A stretch of 45,023 nucleotides of DNA from Patescibacteria group bacterium (GCA_022703425.1 JAKLDQ010000004.1:1-45023); one strand, 5' to 3'; shown: positions 18,728-41,296, counted from the first letter of the stretch. Notes: a model not told the origin generated them from the letters alone. Numbers and translations: made by a program.

Positions 18728-18836
18728 TTTGATTTAATGATATTACCCTAAAATTTGCGTTTTTTCAATTTTTAGGTTAAAATTTAGTTAAAATCCGGCT
18801 AGCTGCCCTGATAAAAATTAATACCCGAAGTGCCGA

Positions 18837-18908
18837 GCCCTCATGGTGAAATGGATATCATATTTGGCTTCGGACCAAAGGTTGGGAGTTCGAGTCTCTC
18901 TGAGGGCA
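18837..18908 (+). tRNA. tRNA-Arg(UCG)
   Basis: Acceptor GCCCTCA/TGAGGGC, A20, anticodon arm TTTGG-CTTCGGA-CCAAA, T-loop TTCGAGT. Confidence 0.92.
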
Positions 18909-18950
18909 CAATGACGAAGGATAAGCACATATTTAATTAAAAAATTTAAA

Positions 18951-19337
18951 ATGAAAAAAATATTCTGGGTATTTTTTCTTTTATTAATCGGCGTAGCTGC
19001 GGCAGAACATGCTTATGCAATCCCTTGCGGAGTTGACGGGATTGTTCCCTGCGGACAGTATCCAAACTGTCCCTGCGATATTACCGACGTATTTATAATA
19101 CTGACAAATATTTATTTCTTTGTCGTCGCATGGATTGCAACTCCCCTTGCCGTAATAGCTATTGTAATCGGAGCTGTAATAATGATGATATCTGCCGGAA
19201 ATCCCCAGGCATTGGGCACGGGAAAAAAAGTTTTATACGCCGGAATTATTGGCCTTGTCCTAGTGCTCTGTTCGTGGCTCATCATTGATTTTGTTTTAAG
19301 CGCACTGGGATATCGGGGATCCTGGAATAGACTATAA
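18951..19337 (+). CDS. VirB2/TrbC-like (T4SS-type) pilin
   Basis: Signal peptide ending AYA, short 4-Cys segment, hydrophobic hairpin with ISAGNP...GKKVL..GIIGL.LVL.SWLII. Confidence 0.8.
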   Translation: MKKIFWVFFLLLIGVAAAEHAYAIPCGVDGIVPCGQYPNCPCDITDVFIILTNIYFFVVAWIATPLAVIAIVIGAVIMMISAGNPQALGTGKKVLYAGIIGLVLVLCSWLIIDFVLSALGYRGSWNRL

Positions 19338-25585: not shown

Positions 25586-25613
25586 TAAAAAACGGGGCAC
25601 GCCCCGTTTTTTA
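25586..25613. terminator. Bidirectional terminator between the convergent comM and M23 genes
   Basis: TAAAAAACGGGGC-AC-GCCCCGTTTTTTA. Confidence 0.8.
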
Positions 25614-28230: not shown

Positions 28231-28260
28231 TTTCTCCACATATTTGACTTTTTTATATTG

Positions 28261-28269
28261 TGGTATAAT
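28261..28269 (+). promoter_or_regulatory. Extended -10 promoter of the VirB6-like gene
   Basis: TGGTATAAT (perfect TGnTATAAT) 18 bp before ATG 28288. Confidence 0.6.
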
Positions 28270-28287
28270 TATGTAACATTTTTATTT

Positions 28288-30462
28288 ATGCTTGGAAAAA
28301 TATCACAATTTTCAGACGAGCTTTTCATTAAGTTGTACATTTTAAAAAGCTCTGTTTTAGGTTCCAGAATAAAAAAGAAGGAAAGAGGGGCGCTTGTTAC
28401 CGGCCTTGTGATTGGGGGAGCCATTCTTGCAAGCACACTTATAGGAGGATTATGGATGTCATCGAAAGTTGAAACGGCAAAAGAAGGTTTTTTCGCCGAT
28501 CTAACAAGGGGAATCGGATTATTTCTTCTTGCCGTAGCCGACACGGTTTTTCAGGCCGCCGCAACTCTATTATCCTATGTAATCGGACCTTCTTTTACAG
28601 ACCAGGCAATTACAAAAAATCCTGTTTATTTTAGAGTGTGGGGCACAGTAAGGGATCTGTCCAACATGTTGATTGTATTAAGTTTTGTGGTTATTGGAAT
28701 TGCCACAACTTTAAGAGTGCGCGAATACGAGGCAAAAAAACTTCTTGCTCCATTAATAATCCTCGCTCTTCTAATTAACTTCTCAAGCCTGTTCTGTGGT
28801 TTAATAATTGATGCGTCCAACATAGCAATGCGCGATCTGCTCGGAGGCGGTTCTGCAAGCGGATCAATCACCGCAATCAGAGAAGCAATAACCACGTACT
28901 CGAAACTCGAGATGACCGGTAACAATATTAGCCCAAGCACGGGAACCAGCGAACCGCTTTCAAATCCGGGGGAATTTTTGGCAAAATGCGCAGGATTAGC
29001 CCTTTTTCTTTTGATAGCAGCTTACACATTCGGCGTAATGGCAATATTACTCCTTGCAAGATATGCTGTTTTAGCTGTTTTGTTTATACTTTCACCTTTG
29101 GCATTTTTCTGTTTTGTATTCCCGCCCACAAAAAAGGTTTGGAATACATGGTGGGAGCATTTTATTAAATGGTCTTTTATGGGAGTGATTTCCGCTTTCT
29201 TTATTTCGCTTGCCGTGAGCGTGCTTGCTGCCGCAAGTGCGACCGGCACTCCTTTAGACTTTAACACATTCTGCGTTGTATTTATCTTTTTAATTGTCGG
29301 CTACAAGATGACCAAATCAGGAAGCGCCATCGGAGCGACCGCCGTGTTAGGTCTTGCAGCCACCGCCGGAAGCTACGCTCTTGGCGGAGTAGGAGTTGCA
29401 GCAAGAGCTACTGGCTTAAAAAACCTGGCAAAGAGCGCAGGAGAGGGAGCACAAAATACGCTGTCATCGGCGGGAGAAAAAATCGGATTGGTTGCTCCTG
29501 GAACTACCGCAGCAAATAGAAAGAGTCGGCTTGATGAATCAAAGAAGCGCCTTGCAAGCATTGAAAGCAACGAAGAATTGGCAAAGATTGCAGAACAGAG
29601 GCCAGTTACAAGACAAAAAGCTTTGGATAAAGCTGCTGCAGCAGAGATGCTTGCAGAAAGAAAAGCATTTGGGAAGGTTTCTGCAGACAAGAGAGAAGCC
29701 GTTGCTGCGCACGCTTCGGCATACGGGGTTTCAAAAGATGTGTTTACAAAAGAAAGACCAGAGACATTTACAGATACATCTCGGCAGGAAGCTATAAACC
29801 ATGTACGAACGCAAAGGGCACAAAACATGGTACAGAACCTTGGGATGTCCCCCGAAACCGCTTTTGCAGGAGTATCAACATACCCTCCAAACGACAATGA
29901 GATTCGCCGAGCACAGAGCGATTTATCACAAAGAAAAACCACTGACGCGAGGCTTGGCCTTGCGCCGGTAACAGAGAAGGATGTAAAGAACAAACTCATA
30001 GAGGATAGGAGCAGATCATTAATTGAAAATGCACGGAGATCAGGAAGGACAATGACAACGCAAGAAGCGTTGAAATTAAGCAGTGATTACAAGCCGACCA
30101 AAGCAGAAATGATGTTCGGAAGAGAAGAACTTTCAAATGATAGAAGAGCAAACGCAGTAAGAAAATTGTCTGCCGCTAAACAGGCAGAACTTTCGGCTGA
30201 AACACTCGATGATATTCACGTTTTTGGAGCAATCGACTTTACAAACGCAAGGGTAGTTGAAGAATTTAGAAAGGCGCCCCCGAAAACACAGGAAAGAATT
30301 AGAAGTTGGGCCCATGCGCCGTCTACACCCGATCCAAACAGCCAATTTGACAGGCTAAACAGGACAATTGCTGAACTGAATGCAACAGGAAGACCGGAGG
30401 ATGCAGCGAGAGCAACAAGACTTATGAATAATCAAATTTATATTCATACTAACTTCCCATAA
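28288..30462 (+). CDS. TrbL/VirB6-like multi-TM T4SS component with a long C-terminal soluble tail
   Basis: WGTVRDLSNML...GIATTLR, ALLINFS..FCGLIID.SN, R.AVL..LFILSPLAFFC.VFP.TKK.W..WW motifs; ATG 28288 chosen because the ORF-track TTG at 28258 overlaps the promoter. Confidence 0.7.
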   Translation: MLGKISQFSDELFIKLYILKSSVLGSRIKKKERGALVTGLVIGGAILASTLIGGLWMSSKVETAKEGFFADLTRGIGLFLLAVADTVFQAAATLLSYVIGPSFTDQAITKNPVYFRVWGTVRDLSNMLIVLSFVVIGIATTLRVREYEAKKLLAPLIILALLINFSSLFCGLIIDASNIAMRDLLGGGSASGSITAIREAITTYSKLEMTGNNISPSTGTSEPLSNPGEFLAKCAGLALFLLIAAYTFGVMAILLLARYAVLAVLFILSPLAFFCFVFPPTKKVWNTWWEHFIKWSFMGVISAFFISLAVSVLAAASATGTPLDFNTFCVVFIFLIVGYKMTKSGSAIGATAVLGLAATAGSYALGGVGVAARATGLKNLAKSAGEGAQNTLSSAGEKIGLVAPGTTAANRKSRLDESKKRLASIESNEELAKIAEQRPVTRQKALDKAAAAEMLAERKAFGKVSADKREAVAAHASAYGVSKDVFTKERPETFTDTSRQEAINHVRTQRAQNMVQNLGMSPETAFAGVSTYPPNDNEIRRAQSDLSQRKTTDARLGLAPVTEKDVKNKLIEDRSRSLIENARRSGRTMTTQEALKLSSDYKPTKAEMMFGREELSNDRRANAVRKLSAAKQAELSAETLDDIHVFGAIDFTNARVVEEFRKAPPKTQERIRSWAHAPSTPDPNSQFDRLNRTIAELNATGRPEDAARATRLMNNQIYIHTNFP

Positions 30463-30463
30463 A

Positions 30464-30940
30464 ATGGAAAAAGTTATTTTTTCGGATGATATTATAAAAA
30501 TCCTCAACGAAATAATGGAAAGAAACGGAATAACCGAAACTCCTCTGCAGGCACATGAAAAAATAGCAAAAGGAGAAGATCCAATAGTTTCAATTTTAGC
30601 TGGTTTATCCAGGGATATTTATTCCGGGAAAATCACGGAATCAGATTCTATAATTTTTTTAACTAAAAAAATCCCAACTTCCGAGGACACATCAAAAAAA
30701 ATAATTGCCACAATTAAAGATTCCGTTATTCCATCCATGAAAACCATTTCTGAAACCCCTTCAGAAAACAATATACCAAATACGAAAAACAAAAACATAA
30801 AATATCCCTTAACAGAGAGGCCAAAGAAAAAAAATACCGATAGCAAAGATAAAATAACTGTAAATAAAACAATTTCCGATGTGCCAATGCAAAAAACGAG
30901 AAAGAAAGATACGGATATTTATAGGGAGCCTATCAGTTAA
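30464..30940 (+). CDS. Hypothetical protein coupled to the VirB6-like gene
   Basis: Starts 1 bp after the upstream stop; K/T/S-rich tail ending DIYREPIS. Confidence 0.7.
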   Translation: MEKVIFSDDIIKILNEIMERNGITETPLQAHEKIAKGEDPIVSILAGLSRDIYSGKITESDSIIFLTKKIPTSEDTSKKIIATIKDSVIPSMKTISETPSENNIPNTKNKNIKYPLTERPKKKNTDSKDKITVNKTISDVPMQKTRKKDTDIYREPIS

Positions 30941-30949
30941 AAAAAAATC

Positions 30950-30976
30950 GGCCGACAGAATTTCTGTCGGCCTTTT
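30950..30976. terminator. Terminator palindrome between convergent genes, 1-nt centre
   Basis: GGCCGACAGAA-T-TTCTGTCGGCC-TTTT with an A-tract upstream. Confidence 0.8.
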
Positions 30977-30978
30977 AA

Positions 30979-32127
30979 CTAGTCCTCGAAAGGAGGCAAT
31001 CCTTGTTTTATCCTCTCGTGGGCTTTTTTCATCTCCTCCGGAGTACGGTTTTCGGCAGGGTTTTTCCTTTCCTTCTTTGATTCACTTTTAGCAGGTGTAG
31101 ATCCGCCTTCGCGAAGCCTTTCGCTTAGAAGGGCTATTATATCCATGCCTCCTTGCGCACCCGAGAAGTAATACTGACGCACCGCGCCGGCATTTAGCCC
31201 CATGCTCCGAACCACGAAGTCCTGATTTAACTTAATCAGGCTCTCGTACTTTTTCAGCGCGGCGTCGGGATCTTTTTTAAACTCCCGCTTGATAGTCTTC
31301 AGACTTGTACCCGTCTGATCGGCAATCATTTCCATGACAGCCCCGCTTGTGCTTCCCACAAGTTCGGAACGTCGGCGCTTTGCCTCCTGCTCGCCCCGGA
31401 AAGTTTTTGTTGTGTCTTCCCGGTATTTGGCATCTGGACTGATGTCAACACATTCCGTCGCCTCGATTGTAAGGCCATGCATGCCATTGAGCGCTTTGAA
31501 AATACCCTCTCCTCTGAGAGTTTCCTCTACAAGCTTGTCGAGCCTGATGTCCGGCTTTGCAATAATATTCTCATAGGTGTGTTGACCGACGTGGTGTCGG
31601 ATATAGGGTTTGGTTCTGTCGCGAAACGAAGTAAACCAGTCTTGCGTGTCCAGCCAGGCTTTTCTTAGATTCGATGTCCATGCCGTAAAGCTCCACAGAG
31701 AGTGCACTGGCACCCCGTTAACGTCCTCGGCATCGTCTGATTTGATGCCATAAGTATAGAACCGGATCAAAAAGCGATAGAGATTGAAGTCTTCTCTGTC
31801 TTCGAGTTCTTTTTGGCCGGGAGCCGTTTTTGTCCAGTGAAACTCGCGTTTCACAAAGAGCCGAAAATACGGCCACAAACCAACCCATCTCCATCCGCCG
31901 AACGGATGCCATTCATATCCTCGGACAATATCTCCTTCGGGTTCGTTTACGCGGTGATCTTGTTTACAGATCAGCGTCTTGTAATAAGCGCCGTTCTTTA
32001 GAGCGATTGCACCTGTTCCTTCTTCGAGAAAAATCCCGCAGATAAAGATCAGGTAATAAAGGATAAGCACGGGAAGAATTCCCGTATATGTCAGAAACCA
32101 GAGAAAGCTCAGAAGCCATGCCAACAT
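30979..32127 (-). CDS. Membrane-anchored protein with a possible divergent SPFH/Band-7 domain
   Basis: N-terminal TM; AEDVNGVPV...PYIRHHVG...GLTIEATECVDISPD followed by a helical EQEAKRRR segment resembles SPFH plus coiled coil; SD AAGGAG 7 nt upstream; visibly higher GC. Confidence 0.55.
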   Translation of the reverse strand: MLAWLLSFLWFLTYTGILPVLILYYLIFICGIFLEEGTGAIALKNGAYYKTLICKQDHRVNEPEGDIVRGYEWHPFGGWRWVGLWPYFRLFVKREFHWTKTAPGQKELEDREDFNLYRFLIRFYTYGIKSDDAEDVNGVPVHSLWSFTAWTSNLRKAWLDTQDWFTSFRDRTKPYIRHHVGQHTYENIIAKPDIRLDKLVEETLRGEGIFKALNGMHGLTIEATECVDISPDAKYREDTTKTFRGEQEAKRRRSELVGSTSGAVMEMIADQTGTSLKTIKREFKKDPDAALKKYESLIKLNQDFVVRSMGLNAGAVRQYYFSGAQGGMDIIALLSERLREGGSTPAKSESKKERKNPAENRTPEEMKKAHERIKQGLPPFED

Positions 32128-32304
32128 ATCTTTTCTCCTTCTGTCATTATGACCCCGCCAAGCGGGTTTTTAGTGTGCTGTTCTTGCCTCAAACAAAATG
32201 GGGCATTATGGTTAATTATATCATATATTCTATTCCTTGTCAAGTCTATTCTCCCCCCCGCACGAAAGTGTTGATAACTTGCATTGTTTGTGCGATTTTT
32301 TATG

Positions 32305-32313
32305 TGGTATAAT
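32305..32313 (+). promoter_or_regulatory. Extended -10 promoter of the prgI-virB4-pilin operon
   Basis: TGGTATAAT 22 bp before the prgI ATG. Confidence 0.6.
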
Positions 32314-32335
32314 TACATAATTTATATTCAAAAAT

Positions 32336-32743
32336 ATGGAACGCTATCCAATCCCCCAATTTATTGAGCAAGAGGGAAGAATTGCTTTCTTTATTTCTTT
32401 CAGGCAGTTTTTTTATTTGGTGGGAGCAGGAGCAATATCTTTCATTCTTTTTTTTGTTCTTCCAATTTACCTTTTCATAATGGCTTTCCTTCTATTGATG
32501 GGAAGCGCTGTTGTTTTGGGATTTGTAACGGTAAACGGAATGCCAATCGGGAACATGCTTCTTTCCTCAATCGGATTTATGACTGGAAGCAAAAATTACA
32601 CATGGAAGAAGAAAGAATCTCCATATCCTTTTACGCCGGTAAAGCGCGTTGAAATTAAAAAAATTGAGGAGGGAGCCCCCATTCGTGCGCAGGAAAGCAA
32701 ACTTAGAAAAATTAGAACTGACGTCGAGTTAAAAACAAAATAG
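32336..32743 (+). CDS. PrgI family (VirB3-like) protein
   Basis: PQFIEQEGRIAF.ISFRQF.YL, two TM helices, conserved Y.WKK; typical position upstream of VirB4. Confidence 0.85.
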   Translation: MERYPIPQFIEQEGRIAFFISFRQFFYLVGAGAISFILFFVLPIYLFIMAFLLLMGSAVVLGFVTVNGMPIGNMLLSSIGFMTGSKNYTWKKKESPYPFTPVKRVEIKKIEEGAPIRAQESKLRKIRTDVELKTK

Positions 32744-32745
32744 CA

Positions 32746-33414
32746 ATGGCAACAGAATCGGCAACACAAGCTTTTCTGGAAATTAAGGATATACGCGAAG
32801 GAATGTTACTGCTGAAGAATAATTCTATCAGGGGCGTTTTGATGGTCTCGTCTTTAAATTTTGCTTTAAAATCAGATGAAGAACAGACTGCAATAATTTA
32901 CGCGTTTCAAAGTTTTTTAAATTCGCTGGATTTTTCGTGCCAGATTGTAATCCAGTCACGGAATATAAACATAACTCCTTATCTGGACACAATCAAAGAC
33001 CTTGAGGAAAGACAAACAAACGAGCTGATGAAACAGCAAACGATCGCATACAGGGAATTTATAAAAAATCTCGTTGTGGGAGATATGGTAATGACAAAAA
33101 ACTTTTACGTTGTTGTTCCTTACACATTAATGGAGGTTTTGGGAATGAAAGCGACTGCCGCAAAACAGTTCAGTTTTTTAGGGCAGGGAAATAATCAAAA
33201 TTCCGGCCAGGAGATGAAAGATGACGAGTTTGAAAGATGCAAAACACAACTTTGGCAGAGGATGGAGTTTTTGGCAATGGGATTAAAAAGATGCGGGCTG
33301 GAAGCTGTTCCGCTGACCACCCCCGAGTTAATAGAATTGTTCTGGGCAATCCACCACCCAGATCAGGCGGAAATCGGATACTATCCGGAAATTTTGCCTG
33401 AATTATTAAAATAA
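32746..33414 (+). CDS. TraC-like T4SS accessory protein (resembles the VirB4 N-terminal region)
   Basis: SSLNFALKSDEEQ.AII..FQSFLNSLDF..QI.IQSR and KNFYVVVPY motifs; lies between prgI and the ATPase. Confidence 0.7.
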   Translation: MATESATQAFLEIKDIREGMLLLKNNSIRGVLMVSSLNFALKSDEEQTAIIYAFQSFLNSLDFSCQIVIQSRNINITPYLDTIKDLEERQTNELMKQQTIAYREFIKNLVVGDMVMTKNFYVVVPYTLMEVLGMKATAAKQFSFLGQGNNQNSGQEMKDDEFERCKTQLWQRMEFLAMGLKRCGLEAVPLTTPELIELFWAIHHPDQAEIGYYPEILPELLK

Positions 33415-35243
33415 TGGAAATTCCTTTTTTTGACAAATTTTTAGGGGGGAAAAAAGATCTCACAGAAGATAAGATTTTTGAAGAAGAGCGTTTTGACGTG
33501 CGCGACATTATTGCTCCTCCGTATATCGGGGTATTGCAGGACCATCTTAAAATCGGAGAAAGGCTGGCAAAATCTTTCTTTGTTTTTTCATATCCGAGAT
33601 ATTTAAATACCGGATGGTTTTCTCCGATTATTGATTTAAACACCCCTGTTGATATTTCCTTTTTTATACATCCGATTGAGAGCGAACTGATTTTAAAAAA
33701 GCTTAGAAAAAAAGTTACCGAGGTTTCATCTGAAATTTTGGAGAGGGAGGAAAAGGGACTTATTAGAGATCCTTCGCTTGAAACGGCCTACCGTGATATT
33801 GAAAATCTGAGAGACAAGCTGATGACAGCCCAGGAAAAAATGTTCAGGTTCGGCCTTTACATCACAATATATGAGAACACAGAAAAAGAACTTCGTGATA
33901 CGGAACTGACATTAAGGTCAATCTTTGAATCACGGCTTATTTATATCAAACCTGCTTTATTCCGGCAAAAAGAAGGATTTATTTCGTGCAACCCTTACGG
34001 AATGGATATGCTGGAGGTGCATACGCCAATGGATACAGAACCTCTTTCCACTGCATTTCCTTTTATTTCTTTTGACTTAAGTTCAAATGAGGGAATTTTA
34101 TACGGCATGAACAGGCACAACAATTCGCTTGTTTTGTTTGACAGATTCAGTCTTGAAAATGCAAACTTGGTTTGTTTTGCAAAATCAGGATCCGGAAAAT
34201 CATATGCCATTAAACTTGAAATTTTGAGATATCTGATGCAGGGTGTCGATGTGATTATCATCGACCCGGAAAATGAATATGAAATGTTGGCTGACGGAAT
34301 CGGCGGTTCTTTCTTTAAAATTTCTCTTACATCGCCAAACCATGTAAACCCGTTTGACCTGCCCATTCCTGGCCCCGATGACAGCCCCGACGATGTTTTA
34401 AGGTCAAACGTTATCAACCTCGTCGGACTGCTAAGAATTATGCTTGGCGGTTTGACCCCGGAAGAAGACAGTATTTTAGACGAGGCGCTAACCCAAACAT
34501 ATGCGATAAGAGATATCACTCCGCAATCTGATCCGCAGACCTGGCAAAACAACACTCCTTTAATGTCTGATTTTGAAGAAATTTTAGAGAGCATGCAGGG
34601 AACTGAATCTTTGGTAAAAAGAATCAAAAAATTTACAAAAGGCACGTTTTCTGACTTTTTTAACCAGCAGTCAAACGTTGCCATAGACAAGCACTTGGTC
34701 GTTTTTGGAATCAGAGACATGGAAGAGTCGCTAAGACCGATAGCACTGTACATCATAATGCGTTATGTATGGAACATTGTTAGAACAAAACTAAAGAAAA
34801 GAATTCTTGTTATTGACGAGGCGTGGTGGCTGATGCAGTCTGAAGACGGCGCCTCTTTTCTGTTTGGGCTTGTAAAAAGGGGAAGGAAATACTGGCTGGG
34901 AGTAACAACAATCACACAGGATGTTGAGGATTTTATGCGGTCTGATTATGGCAAAGCGATTGTGACGAACTCTTCTCTCCAGCTGTTAATGAAACAGTCG
35001 ACCGCAACAATCGATATCGTCCAAAAGACATTTAACCTTACTGAACAGGAAAAATATCTTCTTTTGGAAGCCGCCGTAGGAGAGGGCCTTTTCTTTGCAG
35101 GCAAAAAACACGTGGCAATCAGCGTTATCGCAAGCCAGACTGAAGACCAAATGATAACAACATCTCCTGAAGAAGTCCTTCGGCTGAAAGAAGCAAAGAA
35201 GAACATTGGAAGGCGGCCGGAATTGGAACAGCAACAAGAATAG
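33414..35243 (+). CDS. virB4: VirB4-like T4SS ATPase
   Basis: Walker A AKSGSGKS, IIDPENEY, VNPFD, Walker B ILVIDEAW, KRGRKY, ITQDVEDF. Confidence 0.88.
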   Translation: MEIPFFDKFLGGKKDLTEDKIFEEERFDVRDIIAPPYIGVLQDHLKIGERLAKSFFVFSYPRYLNTGWFSPIIDLNTPVDISFFIHPIESELILKKLRKKVTEVSSEILEREEKGLIRDPSLETAYRDIENLRDKLMTAQEKMFRFGLYITIYENTEKELRDTELTLRSIFESRLIYIKPALFRQKEGFISCNPYGMDMLEVHTPMDTEPLSTAFPFISFDLSSNEGILYGMNRHNNSLVLFDRFSLENANLVCFAKSGSGKSYAIKLEILRYLMQGVDVIIIDPENEYEMLADGIGGSFFKISLTSPNHVNPFDLPIPGPDDSPDDVLRSNVINLVGLLRIMLGGLTPEEDSILDEALTQTYAIRDITPQSDPQTWQNNTPLMSDFEEILESMQGTESLVKRIKKFTKGTFSDFFNQQSNVAIDKHLVVFGIRDMEESLRPIALYIIMRYVWNIVRTKLKKRILVIDEAWWLMQSEDGASFLFGLVKRGRKYWLGVTTITQDVEDFMRSDYGKAIVTNSSLQLLMKQSTATIDIVQKTFNLTEQEKYLLLEAAVGEGLFFAGKKHVAISVIASQTEDQMITTSPEEVLRLKEAKKNIGRRPELEQQQE

Positions 35244-35252
35244 TTTTAATTA

Positions 35253-38200
35253 ATGACACCTATACAGAAAAAACTTTTGTTTTCCTTTTTGTTTCTGCCG
35301 GCTCTTTTTTTGCCTCTCATTGCTTTCGGCCTTGAAGCGTCATATCCTCCGATATTCGGAATGGCGATAACAAATGCTTCCAGCCTTCCGCAGTATTTCA
35401 AATATTTTTTTAATGCGGGAATTTTGCTTGCAGGATTTGCTGCGGTAATTGTTGTTGCGTTTGGAGGAGTTTATTATCTGGTTTCATATGGGAGGGGAAA
35501 ATTTACAAGCGAGGCAAAAGACTGGATAAAATCAGGCATTCTCGGATTACTAATTTTAGTTTGTTCATATCTCATTCTTTACACAATAAATCCAGACCTG
35601 GTTATATTAAAGATGGACGGACTTTTTTCTATTTCGTTAAATGCAGGCCTGTCAGACGATGATTCGTTTGGCGCAAAGAAAATTTTTTTTGATGAAATTC
35701 CAATCGGAACTTTAACTGAAAATGTCTTAACAAGAACGGTTGACTGTTATGATTTTGACGCAAACGGCGACCCCATCCCGGGAGTTGAGGTAAAAACTGA
35801 CAGCGGCCAAAAAGTCCGCGCGCCCACGCTTAGAAACCACGACAGGACAGATTGCATCTTGAAATTAACCGAAGCAGCAAATAAAAAGGCAGAGAAAATC
35901 GAAAAGCTTTCGCAGGAAGTGTCAAAATTAATGAGAGAATGCAACTGTTCAAACAACTGCACTTCAACTTGCAGCTGTCCAAAACCCACTTCAAAATACT
36001 GCACAGGCAACAGTAACAGTGATAAAGCACTTATTAAAAAATGTGAAGATGCCTGCAAAAAAACCCAGTGCAAGGGACCCTCTGAAACCGGCAGTTCCTG
36101 TCCGGCAGATATATATAAAAAAATAGAGCACGGCCCCATTCAGCTGGAGGTCGCCGGCGATCCGTGGACGGAAACCGAAGAAGGAAAATGCCCTCCGCCG
36201 AAAATGAAGGATTTCGCCGGCTTGGATGAGTTCAGGTGTCCCAACCCAAAAAATAATTCCAGATGCAACGATATTTCAACTCTGGTCGGAAGAAAGCATA
36301 AAATCGGAGGAGATGAAGTTCTTATTATTGATACTGAAACTTTTAAAAAGGAGCTGAATCTGATCCAGCAGCTAACTTTTTATTATGAAGAACTTAAAAG
36401 AATTTCTGATCAGATGAAAAAAGATTCTGAAGATTTGGAGCGCGCAGAACTGATGCTGAGCAACTGCAAGTTCGCAGATTCCTATATTGATTTTTTAAAA
36501 ACTTTTGAGAGATCGAATAAGCAATATGTACTTGCGCTCACGCAGCCGATATTTACTGATTCAGTAACAAATGAGCCGGTAAATATTTCCAATTATTGCA
36601 AAGGGTTCAGCTACTCAAATTCAACCTGCTTTACAACATGCCAGAAAATGTGTCCGGACGACAGCACGCAGGTTACAAGCTGTTATAAAAAATGCCAATG
36701 CGATCCGGAAGATGAAAATTGTCTCAAAGTCCAGTGGATGTGCGTACAAGATTGTTATAATTCCCGCCCGTGCAAAAGCGAAAACTTCGACGGAAATTTC
36801 AGCAATTGTATTATTGCTTGCAAAGAAGGATGTAAAAAAGATTGTGAAAAAATTTATCCCGAGTGCCACCCTGAACGTGAGAAATGCCTGGCAAGGTGCG
36901 CAGATGATTCCCGGTGTCTTCTTTATAACAACAATGAATCAAGGTGTGTGTTTGATCCCAAAAGCCTTGTTACCTGCTCGACGAACAGCAGCCAGAACAA
37001 CATGAAAGATTGTATTGATAACTCTTACACCTGCAAGTACGGGTCAAACCAAAATGCAGGATATCTTGAGTGCACAAACGGATGGGCAAACTGCAAAACA
37101 TACAGGGGAGAGCTTTATAATACCGAATTTTCCGCATCTTATTTATATAAAAATCCTTTTACACAAAGGTGTCCAAATGCTTACGAAGTGTGCGCATATT
37201 CCGATCCAAACTCAGAATCCGGTGTAAACCCGTTTATAAACAGAACATGCGAAGACACTTACCCCGAAGTTTATAAATGTCCGCCTTCTTCGGATTGTCC
37301 TGATTGCCCTTGCGGAGTTTCAGAAATAAGCCAGATGAATATAAAATATACGGATGAAATCGGAGAATGCGCAGGAGGAATGCCAAAGATACAGTGTACA
37401 GACGGCACTTTTGCCTGTTATTGCCCAGAAGAAGCTGCTTTGCCGCTGACGATTATATATCCTATGGATAAGTATGATTTTACAGACGTCTCTCCCAAAT
37501 GCGATCAATATGCATATAATGATGACCCCCTGACTTTCTATTGCCAGCAGTCTTGGTGGGAAAAATCCGAAGGTTCAGTTGATGCGCCCGTCGGAGACAA
37601 GGTACATTGCTCTGAAATGAGAGAAATCCCGGTAGGCAAGACCATTGATGATACGGAGTTGTGGGCGTCTGAAACTCTAAAAAGCATAGATAATTATATA
37701 AATAAAATAAAAGGATTAATCAATTACACTAAAGATATTGGCGACAGGATTAATAATAAATACAAGCCATATTGCTCGTGTGCCAGCGTATGCGACAGCG
37801 GAGACAAAATCTGCTTGTCAAAATGTAAATTTGAGTGCAAAGAAACCACCGAAACGACACCAGATGGAACAGTAACAAAGAAAAAAACTTCCAGCTGTGT
37901 TCTTGATGCGTGCAAAAACAATTCCTGCCAGCAAATGATTGATTTGCTTCTGGGAGGCGGAGGAGGAGAAGATGCTGTCTGTAAAAGCAAAAAAGAAGGG
38001 GTGGGAGAATTTGTCAGATATATGAAACAATATCAGTTGGATTTTAAGAAGACATTAACTTTAAAAAGAAGCGATATCTTAAAAGAGCTTACGTACTCAA
38101 GAGAATCGGTAAATAAGTGCAGCGTTGCCCAGGGGGAATATGGAAAAGATGAGGCCCGAATGTACAGCTGTGAAAGAGTAAAAGACGAAATTATGCCTCC

Positions 38201-38360
38201 GTTGAATGAAAACCGGACAGTTTTGGACACCGCAACAGGAATAGAATACATATCAAGATACTGCTACGGACAAGTAGCCGGAAAATATTTTAATGCACAA
38301 AACCAGCCATTGGCAGACAATTGGTTCTGCTGTAATACCTGGGAAAAAGAAAATGAATAA
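35253..38360 (+). CDS. VirB2/TrbC-type pilin domain fused to a giant cysteine-rich extracellular region
   Basis: Signal peptide, LEASYP, pilin hairpin (GGVYYLVSYG...AKDWI.SGILGL.I...SYLILYTINP), then about 900 aa holding about 70 Cys by manual count. Confidence 0.85.
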   Translation: MTPIQKKLLFSFLFLPALFLPLIAFGLEASYPPIFGMAITNASSLPQYFKYFFNAGILLAGFAAVIVVAFGGVYYLVSYGRGKFTSEAKDWIKSGILGLLILVCSYLILYTINPDLVILKMDGLFSISLNAGLSDDDSFGAKKIFFDEIPIGTLTENVLTRTVDCYDFDANGDPIPGVEVKTDSGQKVRAPTLRNHDRTDCILKLTEAANKKAEKIEKLSQEVSKLMRECNCSNNCTSTCSCPKPTSKYCTGNSNSDKALIKKCEDACKKTQCKGPSETGSSCPADIYKKIEHGPIQLEVAGDPWTETEEGKCPPPKMKDFAGLDEFRCPNPKNNSRCNDISTLVGRKHKIGGDEVLIIDTETFKKELNLIQQLTFYYEELKRISDQMKKDSEDLERAELMLSNCKFADSYIDFLKTFERSNKQYVLALTQPIFTDSVTNEPVNISNYCKGFSYSNSTCFTTCQKMCPDDSTQVTSCYKKCQCDPEDENCLKVQWMCVQDCYNSRPCKSENFDGNFSNCIIACKEGCKKDCEKIYPECHPEREKCLARCADDSRCLLYNNNESRCVFDPKSLVTCSTNSSQNNMKDCIDNSYTCKYGSNQNAGYLECTNGWANCKTYRGELYNTEFSASYLYKNPFTQRCPNAYEVCAYSDPNSESGVNPFINRTCEDTYPEVYKCPPSSDCPDCPCGVSEISQMNIKYTDEIGECAGGMPKIQCTDGTFACYCPEEAALPLTIIYPMDKYDFTDVSPKCDQYAYNDDPLTFYCQQSWWEKSEGSVDAPVGDKVHCSEMREIPVGKTIDDTELWASETLKSIDNYINKIKGLINYTKDIGDRINNKYKPYCSCASVCDSGDKICLSKCKFECKETTETTPDGTVTKKKTSSCVLDACKNNSCQQMIDLLLGGGGGEDAVCKSKKEGVGEFVRYMKQYQLDFKKTLTLKRSDILKELTYSRESVNKCSVAQGEYGKDEARMYSCERVKDEIMPPLNENRTVLDTATGIEYISRYCYGQVAGKYFNAQNQPLADNWFCCNTWEKENE

Positions 38361-39660
38361 AATAAAAAAATTTCGTTCGTCATTATTTTTAATTGGCCTG
38401 TTTTTTGCAGAATCCGCCCAGGCCTTTGAAGCCCGATATCCTTTTATTCCCGGCGTTGGAACGCTAAATCCAGACAGCGGAATCGGAGAATATATAAGTT
38501 ATTTTTTTGGAATTTTAATATACATCGGCGGGGCAATAGCTCTGGTTTCTTTTGCAATCGGCGGTGCACAATATATTATGTCCGGAGACAGTCCGGAAAA
38601 TTCTGGAAATGCAAAAGACCGGATGAAAGGTTCTATCCTTGGGCTGGTCCTGACGGTATCCTCATTTATCCTCATCAAAACAATCAACCCTGCAATGGCA
38701 ACACCGACAATTACCCCTCTGCCAAGCACAGGAGGTGTCTTTTTTACAAATGGATCTGTACTTAAACCGGCTCCCCTCAGGGAAAATAATATTGCCTCAA
38801 TACCTGTCGGTTACCATAATCTTGTTTACAAGTGTAATGAAAACGGTCCCGCTCTGCTTGTTTGGATATATCCAGACGTGGGACTGTCTGGCTTCGGCTC
38901 CGACGGGATAGACGGCGTTCAAATATTCAGAGTCGCTTGCGGGCAATCTCTTGCTTTGGGCGGATCGGGCTCTTACAAAATGGCCTTCGAAACTCCTGGA
39001 ATTTATTACTGTCTGGGAAATTGCCAAGGCCAATTCTGCACGGGATTTATGTCAGAGGCGAACCTGACAGACCAAAAAGAAATCCCAGAGGTTTTTAAAA
39101 ACAAAATCAGATCAATAAGAATAGTAAACGGATTCAGCAATGGAATAGCGCTAGGAGCAATTTTTCACCAGGACAAAGATTTTACCGGAACCTGCAGTAA
39201 CATGATCCCTCAAGATGCCCGGTTCAACTCACGCGAAAGCTACTGTATAGACGTGCTTCCTGAAACAACGGGCTCTGTAAATATTTTTAAATGGAATTAT
39301 AAATTGAATTCGGGAGACGGCGTTACTTTTTACAGCACGCCTCACGGATATAGAACAGGGTCTTATGCAGGATACAGATCTGTTGGCAATGATTTAATCA
39401 ATCCTGTTTATGTGATTAATCCTTCTGCAATTATTTTTGACTATACAAACGTTGATGTCCCTCCGGAAGTAAAACGCCAGTGTGTTTCTTTTGGTGATTG
39501 CCCCGGGTCTGTTGAAGTAAAAGGAAAATATCTGGTTGTTGTATCTGCCGCGGGCGGATATTGTGAGGTTTTTAACCAAAATATCTCGAACATGAAGGGC
39601 ACGAAGGTTGGCGCTCAGGGAAGGCAATTGGGCGATATTTATATTATTCCCGTCAGATAA
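38353..39660 (+). CDS. VirB2/TrbC-type pilin fused to beta-rich (beta/gamma-crystallin-like) domains
   Basis: Signal peptide ending AQA, FEARYP, pilin hairpin ending IKTINP; ATG 38353 overlaps the upstream stop and is preferred to 38293. Confidence 0.8.
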   Translation: MNKIKKFRSSLFLIGLFFAESAQAFEARYPFIPGVGTLNPDSGIGEYISYFFGILIYIGGAIALVSFAIGGAQYIMSGDSPENSGNAKDRMKGSILGLVLTVSSFILIKTINPAMATPTITPLPSTGGVFFTNGSVLKPAPLRENNIASIPVGYHNLVYKCNENGPALLVWIYPDVGLSGFGSDGIDGVQIFRVACGQSLALGGSGSYKMAFETPGIYYCLGNCQGQFCTGFMSEANLTDQKEIPEVFKNKIRSIRIVNGFSNGIALGAIFHQDKDFTGTCSNMIPQDARFNSRESYCIDVLPETTGSVNIFKWNYKLNSGDGVTFYSTPHGYRTGSYAGYRSVGNDLINPVYVINPSAIIFDYTNVDVPPEVKRQCVSFGDCPGSVEVKGKYLVVVSAAGGYCEVFNQNISNMKGTKVGAQGRQLGDIYIIPVR

Positions 39661-40790
39661 TGGAAAACAGGCAATTATTATTTTTTTTAATTGCACTCTT
39701 TCTGCTTTTACCAAACAGCGCCTTTTTATTTTCCGCCGGACTTGAAATAAATTATCCTACACTTTCAAGCGGTTCCCATATAGATGCTCTTACCAACCTG
39801 CCGGAATATATGAGATATGTCTTTGATTTTGCGATGTTTGTGGGATTTTTTTCTGTTTTTTTATCGCTTGTCTGGGCAGGTGTTCTTTGGATTATGTCTC
39901 CTGCAAAAGCAAGTTTTTTAGCAGAAGCAAAAGACAGGATTATGGGTGCTTTTTCGGGTCTGCTTTTGCTTGTTCTGCTTTATCTGATTGTCGTTACAAT
40001 CAATCCTCAACTTGCCTTTTTTAACCGTACGGGAATTAATCAGGACGAAATAGGCCGAGACGACAGCAGAGCACCGGGTGTTTATTTTTTTGTCGGCAGA
40101 GGCTGCCCCTTCCGAGCAGAAAATCCTTATGTAAAAATGACCAGCATTCCGGATTTTGGAGAAATAAACAACCGAATAAACTCCGTTTATATCCAGCAAA
40201 AAAATATCTCTTTTATTTCGGTTTTATTTGACAGTGAGAACTTTTACGGCAGATGCCAATATATAGATCCAAACAGGGGATGCAGCAATGTTGCCCCTTT
40301 TGCAGGTTCTGCGTCCATATATAATTTTAATTACGGATACAGCGGATTAGGAGTAATATTTTATAGAAAAGCTTTTTTTGACGATGAGGGCGGATATTAT
40401 ATGGTAAAAGACAATCAGATAAAGGGAAAAATTTTAATTTTAGATTTGAGGACGATGGATTACAGAGATCCGAGGTCTGGCGAATGCACAGTGCCGGAAA
40501 AAGAAAGGGACTGCACATCATGGGACAACCAGGGAAATTGTTTGACGAGAAAATGCCCTTCCGTATACCGTAATTTGACTTCGATAGAATTGAAAGGCAA
40601 TTATTTTGTATTGCTTGTTTACTATGATGAAAAAAATGATACTCCCGCAGGTCCCTGGTCATTTTGCCAGGCGTTCCCCACAAAAGATGACGTTAACAGA
40701 GATGGTCCAGTCCAGATAAAATGGGAAAATGTAAACAATGTTGGGATGACTCCCAATTTTGCGTTAATTATCCCCGTAACTCAAAAATAA
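39660..40790 (+). CDS. VirB2/TrbC-type pilin fused to beta/gamma-crystallin-like domains; paralogue of the preceding gene
   Basis: LEINYP, AKDRIMGAFSGLLL...VTINP; TAATG overlap with the upstream gene. Confidence 0.8.
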   Translation: MENRQLLFFLIALFLLLPNSAFLFSAGLEINYPTLSSGSHIDALTNLPEYMRYVFDFAMFVGFFSVFLSLVWAGVLWIMSPAKASFLAEAKDRIMGAFSGLLLLVLLYLIVVTINPQLAFFNRTGINQDEIGRDDSRAPGVYFFVGRGCPFRAENPYVKMTSIPDFGEINNRINSVYIQQKNISFISVLFDSENFYGRCQYIDPNRGCSNVAPFAGSASIYNFNYGYSGLGVIFYRKAFFDDEGGYYMVKDNQIKGKILILDLRTMDYRDPRSGECTVPEKERDCTSWDNQGNCLTRKCPSVYRNLTSIELKGNYFVLLVYYDEKNDTPAGPWSFCQAFPTKDDVNRDGPVQIKWENVNNVGMTPNFALIIPVTQK

Positions 40791-40823
40791 AACAAAACCG
40801 CTTAAGGAGCGGTTTTGTTTTAT
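40787..40823. terminator. Bidirectional terminator separating the pilin operon from the jag operon
   Basis: 16-bp stem ATAAAACAAAACCGCT-TAAGG-AGCGGTTTTGTTTTAT overlapping both stop codons. Confidence 0.85.
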
Positions 40824-41296
40824 TTGGGTTTTATAACAATATGGCGGTAAGCCCCCATCCCTGAGCTTTCAGTGGAAATATCCGTTCTGCCAGCAAGTTC
40901 TGAATGTATAACTCGTCTTTCGTAGGCAGACATAGGCGAGAGAACTCTCTCTTCTCTTGTGAGAGAAACCTCGTCTGCAAGGTCTTTTGCCAGATCTTTT
41001 AAATACTCAACTTTTTTCTTTTTGTATTCGTTTATATCCAGGCTTAAATGGAATATTTTCTGGATTTTTTTATTTAAAATCGTTCTCATCAGCCTCTGAA
41101 TTTCAGAAAGAGTCTGCCCCTTTTCCCCTATTAATATCTGCGGCTCTTCAAAAGTCGCAGAAATCACCACAATGTCTCCTTCTGGAGATTCTCCCTTCTC
41201 ATGTTCAACCTCAATTCTTTTTGGAGGCAAAGTCATCAACTGAAAAAATTCTTCAGCAGAATTTTTTATTTTTTTAATGTCGTTTTGGTCTATCAT
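40820..41296 (-). CDS. jag: Jag/KhpB-like RNA-binding protein (KH plus R3H), lacking the Jag N-terminal domain
   Basis: ILIGEKGQTL..IQ, LDINEYK, PMSAYERRVIH (R3H); downstream of yidC. Confidence 0.88.
   Translation of the reverse strand: MIDQNDIKKIKNSAEEFFQLMTLPPKRIEVEHEKGESPEGDIVVISATFEEPQILIGEKGQTLSEIQRLMRTILNKKIQKIFHLSLDINEYKKKKVEYLKDLAKDLADEVSLTREERVLSPMSAYERRVIHSELAGRTDISTESSGMGAYRHIVIKPK

What the first reader, a model, noticed from the sequence alone, without database searches (positions are those of the whole stretch)
28288..40790. Chromosomal, relaxase-free T4SS-like locus ending in three cargo-bearing VirB2-type pilins: a candidate modular surface-display or host-attachment system
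Seen: VirB6-like, PrgI, TraC-like and VirB4 genes, then three genes in tandem (the last two joined by overlapping stop/start codons) closed by a 16-bp bidirectional terminator. All three share one architecture: a Sec signal peptide, a conserved mature start (LEASYP / FEARYP / LEINYP), a pilin hydrophobic hairpin ending TINP, and an extracellular cargo of about 260-900 aa. No relaxase, VirD4 coupling protein, integrase or att repeat is visible, and the locus sits among core genes next to oriC. Established: classical VirB2/TrbC pilins are small (about 70-120 aa), and PrgI plus VirB4 plus VirB6 is the minimal Gram-positive-type T4SS core. T4SS-like clusters are already reported in Patescibacteria, so the core itself is not new. 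Inference: the pilin domain is used as an anchor or assembly tag to display interchangeable adhesin-like domains, which would suit an episymbiont that must recognise a host.
Basis: partly seen in the sequence, partly recalled or inferred. Interest (0 to 1): 0.82.

Follow-up and report, generated by a model that had tools for sequence, protein, structure and literature searches.

The report
Patescibacterial T4SS with ectodomain-bearing pilins
This is the already published chromosomal, non-conjugative type IV secretion locus of ultra-small Patescibacteria. Its less ordinary feature is that the three genes after the VirB4 motor fuse a small pilin hairpin to large outward-facing domains, which are likely host-contact parts.

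Summary
Each of the three has a signal peptide, a VirB2-like two-helix hairpin (Pfam PF18895) ending in TINP, and a 260-900 aa C-terminal domain. A strong terminator closes the row.

The frame is not new. A relaxase-free, oriC-proximal T4SS with pilin arrays and remote coupling proteins is described for Patescibacteria (PMC12102498, PMC10633639). This genome has two VirD4-like genes on other contigs.

The papers I could search do not mention the fused pilins.
- Protein A (1035 aa, 71 Cys) models confidently but matches no PDB fold and no Pfam family.
- Proteins B and C are paralogues with beta-gamma-crystallin-like Greek-key domains.

All three are conserved orthologue families placed directly after virB4 in relatives, so within this lineage they are fixed parts, not swappable cargo. 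Their ectodomains diverge much faster than VirB4 and cannot be aligned outside the taxonomic family. Some orthologues of A carry an M23-like wall-hydrolase module.

Best reading: specialised minor or tip pilins that present host-wall-contact domains. The main rival is that the hairpin is only a membrane anchor. Verdict: a new variant of a known kind, moderate interest.

The parts
28258..30462 (+). Extended VirB6/TrbL-like polytopic membrane protein (734 aa; alternative start ATG 28288) with a long hydrophilic C-terminal tail.
   Evidence: PF04610 at 26.4 bits against a cut-off of 25.9, over residues 160-348. A 659-aa orthologue sits at the same position in L009.
30464..30940 (+). 158-aa protein of unknown function, co-transcribed with virB6.
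   Evidence: No Pfam or NCBIfam hit. A 179-aa gene sits at the same position in L009.
30950..30972 (.). Bidirectional terminator-like hairpin between convergent genes.
   Evidence: 10 pairs, 7 of them G-C, with T-runs on both strands.
30979..32127 (-). Conserved 382-aa membrane-anchored protein of unknown function, on the opposite strand inside the locus. Local G+C is 0.495.
   Evidence: 45% identical (E 3e-94) to the syntenic 419-aa gene of L009. No Pfam or PDB match. GC.
32215..32243 (-). Perfect sigma-70-type promoter match (TTGACA, 17 nt spacer, TATAAT, with TG) upstream of the 382-aa gene.
   Evidence: 12 of 12 positions match. This is a consensus match only.
32336..32743 (+). PrgI/VirB3-like protein (135 aa).
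   Evidence: PF12666 at 38.1 bits against a cut-off of 27.
32746..33414 (+). TrsD-type protein (222 aa), homologous to the N-terminal part of VirB4.
   Evidence: Matches VirB4_plasma positions 102-233 (E 7e-10) and TrsD (E 5.7e-5). The L009 orthologue carries PF26593 TraC-like.
33414..35243 (+). VirB4 ATPase (609 aa) of the monoderm (MPF-FATA-like) type.
   Evidence: conju_CD1110 at 354 bits against a cut-off of 325, and P-loop_TraG at 99.8 bits. It is 74-89% identical in family relatives.
35253..38360 (+). Pilin fusion A (1035 aa): signal peptide, VirB2-like hairpin (about residues 28-118), then a roughly 900-aa ectodomain with 71 Cys and no known fold.
   Evidence: -: sequence and architecture.
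- 75 homologue clusters.
- AF2 pLDDT 77.7, pTM 0.75.
- no PDB or viral fold match.
- PF18895 in 18 of 41 orthologues.
38353..39660 (+). Pilin fusion B (435 aa): signal peptide, hairpin (PF18895 above its cut-off), then a beta-gamma-crystallin-like double Greek-key ectodomain.
   Evidence: -: 38.6 to 42.4 bits.
- AF2 pLDDT 87.
- Foldseek hits to gamma-crystallins at probability 1.0 and TM about 0.6.
- 40 full-length homologue clusters.
39660..40790 (+). Pilin fusion C (376 aa), a paralogue of B in both the hairpin and the ectodomain.
   Evidence: BLASTP against B: hairpin E 1e-8, ectodomain 25% identity over 204 aa at E 6e-8. A 391-aa orthologue is in L009.
40785..40825 (.). Strong terminator hairpin closing the operon, shared with the convergent jag gene.
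   Evidence: 19 pairs followed by a T-run; sequence read.
18951..19337 (+). Stand-alone small T4SS pilin (128 aa). It lies outside the finding and is a candidate shaft subunit.
   Evidence: PF18895 at 29.9 bits. Four more small pilins lie in tandem on contig C31.

Best explanation
The stretch is the vertically inherited chromosomal type IV secretion locus of a Paceibacteria-type (Staskawiczbacteria-like) patescibacterium from an anaerobic digester. It holds an extended VirB6, PrgI/VirB3, TrsD and VirB4, followed in one operon by three 'modular pilins'.

Shown:
- Each modular pilin has a signal peptide, a PF18895 VirB2-like helix-loop-helix hairpin with a conserved Lys in the loop, and a large C-terminal domain that this topology places outside the cell.
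- The hairpin is the best-conserved part of each protein. The ectodomains are conserved within the taxonomic family but diverge far faster than VirB4.

Inferred:
- The VirB4/VirB3/VirB6 machine handles these hairpins as it handles the five small pilins encoded elsewhere in the genome.
- The fused proteins therefore enter the pilus as low-copy minor or tip (or priming) subunits.
- There they expose a large Cys-rich domain (A) and Greek-key domains (B, C) to the host cell envelope.
- Some orthologues of A carry an M23-like peptidoglycan-endopeptidase module in surface loops of the same scaffold. The contact is therefore probably with the host cell wall: binding, and in some lineages local cutting.
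- This would serve whatever transfer this non-conjugative T4SS performs. A homologous T4SS is essential for epibiotic growth in the one cultured species tested.
For: -
- Hairpin homology among A, B and C and to the small pilins. Lys69 and Gly78 are invariant or nearly so across fused and small pilins.
- Operon structure (overlapping or closely abutting ORFs, one terminator).
- Conservation: B has 40 full-length homologue clusters and A has 75. Synteny is identical in L009, down to jag-yidC-rnpA-dnaA.
- In most of 31 relatives, 2 to 4 pilin-fusion genes of 321 to 1478 aa directly follow virB4.
- Rates: VirB4 is 74-89% identical within the family and 57-71% within the order. A is 36-43% identical within the family, and outside it only the hairpin region aligns. 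Median identity is 59% / 50% for the hairpins against 38% for the ectodomains.
- Folds: B has beta-gamma-crystallin-like domains. A is confidently modelled but has no known fold.
- M23-like modules sit at two different loop positions in orthologues of A.
- Literature: the homologous T4SS and its pilin array are essential in Southlakia, and the system is relaxase-free and lies near dnaA (PMC10633639, PMC12102498).
Against: - There is no direct evidence that any PF18895 protein polymerises, or that the fused forms enter a filament.
- A and C score below the PF18895 gathering cut-off on their own.
- A profile of the hairpins finds no solved VirB2/TraA pilin by sequence.
- A domain of 300-900 aa on every subunit would be sterically hard to fit in a VirB2-type helical pilus, so the reading needs low-copy incorporation.
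- Strict one-copy-each conservation right after virB4 fits a fixed structural part at least as well as an adhesin.
- No adhesin, lectin or enzyme fold was found in this genome's own three proteins.
- No VKOR or DsbA-like gene was found and the habitat is anaerobic, so disulfide formation in the 71-Cys domain is unexplained.
- No RNA data could be found.
Confidence: 0.5

Rival explanations
1. The pilin-like hairpin is only a two-helix membrane anchor. A, B and C stay in the bacterium's own membrane as fixed envelope-spanning or wall-processing parts of the T4SS. They would stand in for the VirB8/PrgL and VirB1/PrgK-type components that were not detected here. Alternatively they are general surface proteins and never enter a filament.
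For: - One copy of each lies directly after virB4 in nearly every relative, which looks like a stoichiometric structural part.
- No VirB8- or VirB1-like protein was detected in the locus.
- Some orthologues carry an M23-like wall hydrolase, as monoderm VirB1 analogues do.
Against: - The hairpin is the most conserved part of each protein. It shares the loop Lys and Gly with the stand-alone pilins. That is more constraint than a passive anchor needs.
- The ectodomains evolve fast and cannot be recognised outside the family. That is unusual for core channel parts and typical of host-facing surfaces.
Confidence: 0.3
2. The whole apparatus is an import device, like the archaeal Ced system or the H. 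pylori ComB system. The fused pilins would capture DNA or other host-derived substrates rather than attach to the host.
For: - VirB4 has weak matches to the DNA-import ATPases CedB and CedD.
- No relaxase was found.
- Reviews speculate about uptake from the host (PMC12857230).
Against: - The CedB match is far below its cut-off (54.8 against 700 bits).
- No nucleic-acid-binding fold was found in A, B or C.
- In Southlakia, loss of competence (comEC) did not explain why the T4SS is essential.
- This reading concerns the direction of transport and does not exclude the tip-pilin reading.
Confidence: 0.1
3. The locus is an ordinary integrative conjugative element or a degraded one, and the large proteins are its surface-exclusion or adhesin cargo.
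For: The VirB4 is of the conjugative monoderm type. Two T4CP-like genes exist in the genome.
Against: - No match to three relaxase families anywhere in a genome that is 96.5% complete.
- No flanking direct repeats.
- The neighbours are housekeeping genes, and synteny with ksgA and jag-yidC-rnpA-dnaA is the same in relatives.
- VirB4 is present in 31 of 31 relatives at high identity, so inheritance is vertical.
- The T4CP genes sit among housekeeping genes on other contigs.
Confidence: 0.03

Closest known systems
Patescibacteria-clade chromosomal T4SS (Quinonero-Coronel et al. 2025, PMC12102498; Southlakia epibionticum SEML1_0006-0019, Wang et al. 2023, PMC10633639)
   Same: - VirB4 of MPF-FATA ancestry, with TrsD, PrgI/VirB3, VirB6 and PF18895 pilins near virB4.
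- No relaxase, and T4CP genes far away.
- Position next to dnaA, dnaN, rnpA and ksgA.
- Several pilin genes per genome.
   Different: - The published pilin arrays are treated as small proteins. The Southlakia genes whose lengths I could read (SEML1_0017-0019) are 381-417 bp.
- Here the three pilin genes beside virB4 encode 376-1035 aa proteins with large folded ectodomains.
- The small pilins lie elsewhere in this genome.
- Text searches of those papers found no mention of fused pilins.
VirB2/TraA/TrbC conjugative pilins and the VirB5 tip protein of diderm T4SSs
   Same: A signal peptide followed by a two-helix hairpin with a basic loop, encoded with VirB3, VirB4 and VirB6. VirB5 sets a precedent for a low-copy protein at the pilus tip that contacts the target cell.
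   Different: - Classical pilins are about 70-130 aa with no extra domain.
- VirB5 does not have a pilin fold.
- No sequence match to solved pilins was found.
- The organism is a monoderm, and monoderm T4SSs normally lack pilins.
Minor pilins with large extra domains in type IV pili and type II secretion (for example TcpB/CofB-type initiator pilins; from my own knowledge)
   Same: The logic is the same: a conserved pilin module lets a few subunits that carry bulky domains join, prime or cap a filament built from small major pilins.
   Different: It is an unrelated pilin fold and a different assembly machine. The resemblance is functional analogy only and was not tested here.
Microbial beta-gamma-crystallin domains (for example Protein S and the WmKT killer toxin)
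   Same: The predicted ectodomain of B superposes on two-domain gamma-crystallins (TM about 0.6 on the target, probability 1.0). It also matches the WmKT toxin at probability 0.87.
   Different: - No Pfam Crystall hit.
- The sequence signatures are only partly present.
- The calcium-binding motif is degenerate in B.
Pam pili of CPR bacteria (PMC13278184)
   Same: CPR-specific surface filaments proposed to make host contact.
   Different: Pam pilins have Ig-like folds and assemble by donor-strand exchange. They are unrelated to PF18895 hairpins or to VirB4.

Membership tests
Patescibacteria-clade chromosomal T4SS | VirB4 ATPase of the monoderm (MPF-FATA-like) type | tested here: met
   NF045971 conju_CD1110 at 354.2 bits against a cut-off of 325, and PF19044 at 99.8 bits. 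No phylogeny was built.
Patescibacteria-clade chromosomal T4SS | TrsD, PrgI/VirB3 and VirB6 encoded beside virB4 | tested here: met
   PrgI at 38.1 bits (cut-off 27) and TrbL/VirB6 at 26.4 bits (cut-off 25.9). TrsD is below its cut-off (E 5.7e-5) but aligns to the VirB4 N-terminal region at E 7e-10.
Patescibacteria-clade chromosomal T4SS | No relaxase; coupling protein absent from the locus | tested here: met
   PF03432, PF01076 and PF08751 have no match in the genome. MOBC, MOBM, MOBH and MOBT models were not searched. Two T4CP-like genes lie on contigs C4 and C12.
Patescibacteria-clade chromosomal T4SS | Chromosomal, vertically inherited, close to dnaA | tested here: met
   dnaA lies 2 kb downstream. 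The synteny is the same in L009. VirB4 is in 31 of 31 relatives at 57-89% identity.
T4SS_pilin (Pfam PF18895) / VirB2-like pilins | HMM match above the gathering score | tested here: inconclusive
   - B is above the cut-off (38.6 to 42.4 bits against 26.6).
- A (14 to 19.5 bits) and C (13.7 to 17.3 bits) are below it.
- A and C are linked to B by BLASTP at E 6e-16 and 1e-8.
- 18 of 41 orthologues of A match at E <= 0.01.
T4SS_pilin (Pfam PF18895) / VirB2-like pilins | Signal peptide followed by two hydrophobic helices joined by a short basic loop | tested here: met
   Hydropathy and the alignment with five small pilins. AF2 places helices at residues 44-79 and 81-111 in B, and at 45-81 and 86-112 in A.
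T4SS_pilin (Pfam PF18895) / VirB2-like pilins | Small stand-alone subunit (about 70-150 aa) | tested here: not met
   The proteins are 1035, 435 and 376 aa. Of the phylum-wide top 150 hits, about 13 lie in open frames of 300 aa or more.
T4SS_pilin (Pfam PF18895) / VirB2-like pilins | Polymerises into a T4SS-dependent filament | not testable with these tools
   No multimer modelling or experimental data were available. A hairpin profile found no solved pilin in the PDB by sequence.
Beta-gamma-crystallin superfamily (ectodomains of B and C) | Paired Greek-key beta-sandwich fold | tested here: met
   AF2 pLDDT is 87, and mostly 88-96 (10-residue blocks, a few 79-85) across the ectodomain. The top 16 Foldseek hits are all gamma-crystallins, most at probability 0.99-1.0 and TM 0.5-0.63 on the target (three at probability 0.75-0.85, TM ~0.3), with E about 2e-3. 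The fold is predicted, not solved.
Beta-gamma-crystallin superfamily (ectodomains of B and C) | Sequence signature (Y/F/W-x4-Y/F-x-G plus the N/D-N/D-x-I-S-S calcium motif) or a Pfam Crystall hit | tested here: inconclusive
   There is one signature-like motif per ectodomain and one NNRINS motif, in C only. There is no Crystall hit at E <= 0.1.
Integrative conjugative element | Relaxase, integrase and flanking att repeats | tested here: not met
   No relaxase, no repeats beyond chance, and housekeeping flanks.
Peptidase M23 (considered for protein A) | PF01551 match with HxxxD and HxH zinc ligands | tested here: not met
   The window's protein A has no PF01551 hit. Orthologues P0043, P0052, P0075, P0087 and P0104 carry an insert with a ...HIHF / HLHF motif. 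The one rescanned here (P0043) matches only profile positions 45-87 of 96.

The most novel reading that the evidence does not exclude
The VirB2-like hairpin may be a general 'assembly handle'. On this reading A, B and C form a dedicated hetero-oligomeric tip or priming complex of a monoderm T4SS pilus, built from pilin-fold subunits. This would parallel the minor-pilin tip complexes of type IV pili and T2SS. The complex would carry host-wall-recognising domains and, in some lineages, wall-cutting (M23-like) domains. That would make it the part of the essential patescibacterial T4SS that determines host range.
Probability: 0.25. Interest if true: 0.75.

Novelty: new variant of a known kind. Interest (0 to 1): 0.5.

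Why it matters
A homologous patescibacterial T4SS is essential for epibiotic growth in the one species tested (Southlakia epibionticum), yet its substrate and mode of host contact are unknown. The fused pilins are conserved, outward-facing and fast-evolving. They sit directly beside the motor genes, which makes them the most concrete candidates for the host-contact part in Paceibacteria-type lineages.

Their ectodomains can be expressed and tested for binding to cell-wall material or candidate hosts. This would turn a vague question (what does this T4SS touch?) into a bench assay. Protein A also defines a large family of Cys-rich proteins with no match in the PDB.

Tried and rejected
- **ICE reading rejected.** No relaxase of three families, no att-like repeats, and core-gene synteny is conserved in relatives.
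- **'Genome lacks VirD4' rejected.** Two T4CP-like genes were found on C4 and C12.
- **'Interchangeable cargo' within this lineage rejected.** A, B and C are each conserved orthologue families in fixed order.
- **Known fold for protein A: nothing found.** Foldseek against the PDB and BFVD gave no hit below E 0.8. A profile against PDB sequences and a Pfam scan of 41 orthologues also gave nothing.
Self-BLAST returned only the identity hit.
- **Sequence link from the hairpin profile to solved VirB2/TraA pilins: none.** Only low-complexity helical hits appeared.
- **Oxidative-folding genes: VKOR and Thioredoxin_4 have no match**.
- **Expression evidence: no RNA run holds the locus**.
- **Strain-level variation: uninformative.** Only the same strain at 2-5x depth was found in three digester runs. 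Contigs from relatives map at 80% identity or more almost only to trsD and virB4.
- **The 382-aa minus-strand gene: no hit.** No PDB sequence or Pfam match.


Full report
**1. What is in the sequence**

The window is contig C27 of a 720-kb genome in 32 contigs, estimated 96.5% complete. DNA runs that hold it come from anaerobic-digester metagenomes. Close homologues are labelled Candidatus Staskawiczbacteria.

Plus-strand ORFs and profile searches give the following:
- 28258-30462: TrbL/VirB6-like, 26.4 bits, just over the cut-off, with a long hydrophilic tail.
- 30464-30940: a 158-aa protein with no match.
- 32336-32743: PrgI, 38 bits.
- 32746-33414: a 222-aa protein that aligns to the N-terminal region of VirB4 and to TrsD.
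- 33414-35243: VirB4, conju_CD1110 at 354 bits.
- 35253-38360, 38353-39660 and 39660-40790: three tandem genes, here called A (1035 aa), B (435 aa) and C (376 aa).

A conserved 382-aa gene lies on the minus strand at 30979-32127. A bidirectional hairpin (30950-30972) sits on one side of it. A perfect sigma-70-type promoter match (32243-32215) sits on the other.

A 19-pair hairpin at 40785-40825 closes the row. A and B overlap by 8 nt if B starts at ATG 38353, and B and C share one base.

The flanks are ksgA and an ICMT-like gene upstream, and jag-yidC-rnpA then dnaA-dnaN downstream.

**2. The three tandem proteins are pilin fusions**

All three begin with a signal-peptide-like segment. Next come LEASYP, FEARYP or LEINYP, then two hydrophobic helices joined by a Lys/Arg-rich loop, ending in TINP.

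PF18895 (T4SS_pilin) is above its cut-off only for B, at 38.6 to 42.4 bits. B also matches the Mbov_0395 pilin-like family. A and C score 14 to 19.5 bits.

Pairwise BLASTP ties them together. A against B gives 38% identity over 107 aa, E 6e-16. B against C gives 29% over 92 aa, E 1e-8. In addition, 18 of 41 orthologues of A and 33 of the 36 sequences in the B-family alignment (35 B homologues plus C) hit PF18895.

The hairpins align with the five stand-alone small pilins of the genome: window 18951-19337 and four in tandem on C31. A loop Lys is nearly invariant and a Gly is invariant across all of them.

The basic loop and the signal peptide put both ends of the hairpin outside the cell, so the C-terminal domains should be extracellular. 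The 71 Cys of A and the beta-rich domains of B and C fit this. The topology is inferred, not measured.

**3. What the ectodomains are**

B was modelled with 36 sequences (mean pLDDT 87). It shows two long helices followed by an all-beta region. The top 16 PDB matches for that region are all gamma-crystallins. Most have probability 0.99-1.0 and TM 0.5-0.63 on the target, with E about 2e-3. The WmKT killer toxin also appears.

C is a paralogue of B in this region too (25% identity over 204 aa, E 6e-8). The sequence signatures of the crystallin family are only partly present and Pfam finds nothing, so this is a fold-level assignment.

A was modelled with 41 sequences (pLDDT 77.7, pTM 0.75). It has no match in the PDB or BFVD, no Pfam family and no hit from a profile against PDB sequences. 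Fifty positions are invariant across 41 orthologues, about half of them Cys.

Five orthologues of A carry an M23-like module with YAH...G..IGE.G.TG...HIHF-type motifs. It is inserted after the conserved IEHGPI motif in P0043, P0052 and P0075. In P0087 and P0104 it sits in the variable, low-confidence loop that corresponds to residues 690-743. In the one orthologue rescanned here (P0043), only the C-terminal half of the Pfam model is matched, so activity is unproven. The window's own A lacks the insert.

**4. Conservation and rates**

B has 40 full-length homologue clusters (32-44% identity for the 38 that align over >=81% of the query; the last two, 40% and 50%, align over only 24-34%). A has 75 (28-47%).

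In another assembly (L009) the whole arrangement recurs: a VirB6-like gene, a small gene, the minus-strand gene (45% identical), PrgI, a TraC-like gene, VirB4, then genes of 913, 444 and 391 aa, then jag-yidC-rnpA-dnaA-dnaN.

Across 31 relatives of the same family and order:
- VirB4 is present in all of them, at 74-89% identity within the family and 57-71% within the order.
- Pilin-fusion ORFs of 321-1478 aa, usually 2 to 4, follow virB4 directly in most genomes.
- A is only 36-43% identical within the family. Outside the family only the first 120-250 residues still align.

Within the alignments the mature hairpin has a median identity of 59% (A) and 50% (B), against 38% for both ectodomains. 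So the fused pilins are fixed components of this lineage's locus. The handle is conserved and the outer domains evolve fast.

Phylum-wide:
- PF18895 occurs in 289 of 301 sampled genomes. About 13 of the 150 best hits lie in open frames of 300 aa or more.
- B's hairpin finds 9090 cluster representatives at E <= 1e-3.
- Some long members carry other cargo, such as SpaA-type prealbumin domains or an FN3-like domain.

**5. What is already known**

PMC12102498 describes most of this frame in 3,035 Patescibacteria genomes:
- a distinct VirB4 clade related to MPF-FATA;
- TrsD, PrgI/VirB3, VirB6 and VirB2-like pilins (found with PF18895 and PF04956) near virB4;
- 441 pilin arrays of 2-11 genes;
- relaxases in only 103 genomes;
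- 5,713 VirD4-like T4CPs, mostly far from virB4;
- frequent placement next to dnaA, dnaN, rnpA and ksgA.

PMC10633639 shows that the homologous cluster and its pilin array are essential in Southlakia. The pilin genes there whose lengths I could read are 381-417 bp. A 2025 review repeats the point.

In keeping with this, the present genome has two T4CP-like genes among housekeeping genes on other contigs. It has no match to three relaxase families and no att-like repeats around the locus.

Text searches of these papers, and of the library, for fused or long pilins found nothing. NCBI's pipeline already names some members 'pilin'. Earlier notes from this scan report the same theme in about 100 other genomes. 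I treat those as leads only.

**6. How it most likely works**

Shown:
- the gene content;
- the shared hairpin;
- the operon layout;
- the predicted outward topology;
- the folds;
- the conservation pattern.

Inferred:
- the VirB3/VirB4/VirB6 machine handles the fused hairpins as it does the small pilins;
- A, B and C join or cap a filament, or a short stalk, in low copy and expose their ectodomains to the host envelope;
- the M23-like inserts in orthologues point to the cell wall as the target.

The main rival is that the hairpin is merely a membrane anchor. A, B and C would then be fixed envelope parts standing in for the VirB8- and VirB1-type components that were not detected here. The strict one-each conservation next to virB4 fits that rival well. 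I cannot separate the two with the tools at hand.

**7. Open points**

- No VKOR or DsbA-like (Thioredoxin_4) gene was found and the habitat is anaerobic. Even so, A and at least four other giant signal-peptide proteins of this genome are very Cys-rich. Whether these Cys form disulfides or bind metal is unknown.
- No RNA data exist for the locus.
- DNA runs show only the same strain at low depth. Contigs from relatives cross-map almost only to trsD and virB4.

**8. Verdict**

The system is a member of a published kind, and its ectodomain-bearing pilins are a variant that the literature I could search does not describe. Interest is moderate.

Noticed in passing
window 30979-32127 (-) and 32215-32243: A conserved 382-aa membrane protein is encoded on the opposite strand inside the T4SS locus. 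Local G+C is 0.495 against about 0.39 around it, and a perfect TTGACA-17-TATAAT promoter match lies upstream. It is 45% identical to the syntenic gene in L009. It has no Pfam or PDB match and could be an unrecognised T4SS component.
   Followed up: partly
genome contigs C28:12899-17401(-), C12:51938-55912(+), C23:45767-49342(-), C1:53638-56217(+): Four more giant proteins with signal-peptide-like N-termini are very Cys-rich: 1500 aa with 181 Cys, 1324 aa with 121, 1191 aa with 93, and 859 aa with 59. The genome has no VKOR or Thioredoxin_4 match and comes from an anaerobic digester.
   Followed up: no
genome contigs C4:13199-15655(-) and C12:36738-40078(+): There are two VirD4/TrwB-like coupling-protein genes among housekeeping genes. 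The C12 copy looks like a split form of the C4 protein. A 464-aa membrane protein ends in ...EELATLIHFP..., which resembles ...EELASIYHFP... in C4. It is followed by a 643-aa ATPase carrying a treble-clef zinc finger.
   Followed up: partly
orthologues P0043, P0052, P0075 versus P0087, P0104 (alignment A4): An M23-like module is inserted at two different loop positions of the same Cys-rich scaffold in different lineages. This suggests repeated grafting of a wall-hydrolase module, or repeated loss of one.
   Followed up: partly
window 25611-26723 (-): A LysM plus Peptidase_M23 protein is encoded 1.5 kb upstream of the locus. It is a possible wall hydrolase acting in trans for a T4SS whose protein A lacks the M23-like insert. 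It is not conserved at this position in L009.
   Followed up: no
proteins P0137, P0140, P0144, P0163: Some database proteins of 600-900 aa contain 3-4 PF18895 hairpins in a single chain. They may be true multi-pilin proteins, or tandem pilin genes merged by gene calling under another genetic code.
   Followed up: no
relative G011:C7:36353-40123: In one relative the VirB4 match is split into two pieces about 2 kb apart inside a single 1270-aa open frame. This suggests an intein or another large in-frame insertion in VirB4.
   Followed up: no
window ~18700-19000: The cumulative GC skew reaches its minimum near 19 kb. This is at the divergent junction where the small pilin gene 18951 starts, about 24 kb from dnaA. 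The replication origin may therefore not lie right at dnaA, or the skew may simply follow gene orientation.
   Followed up: no
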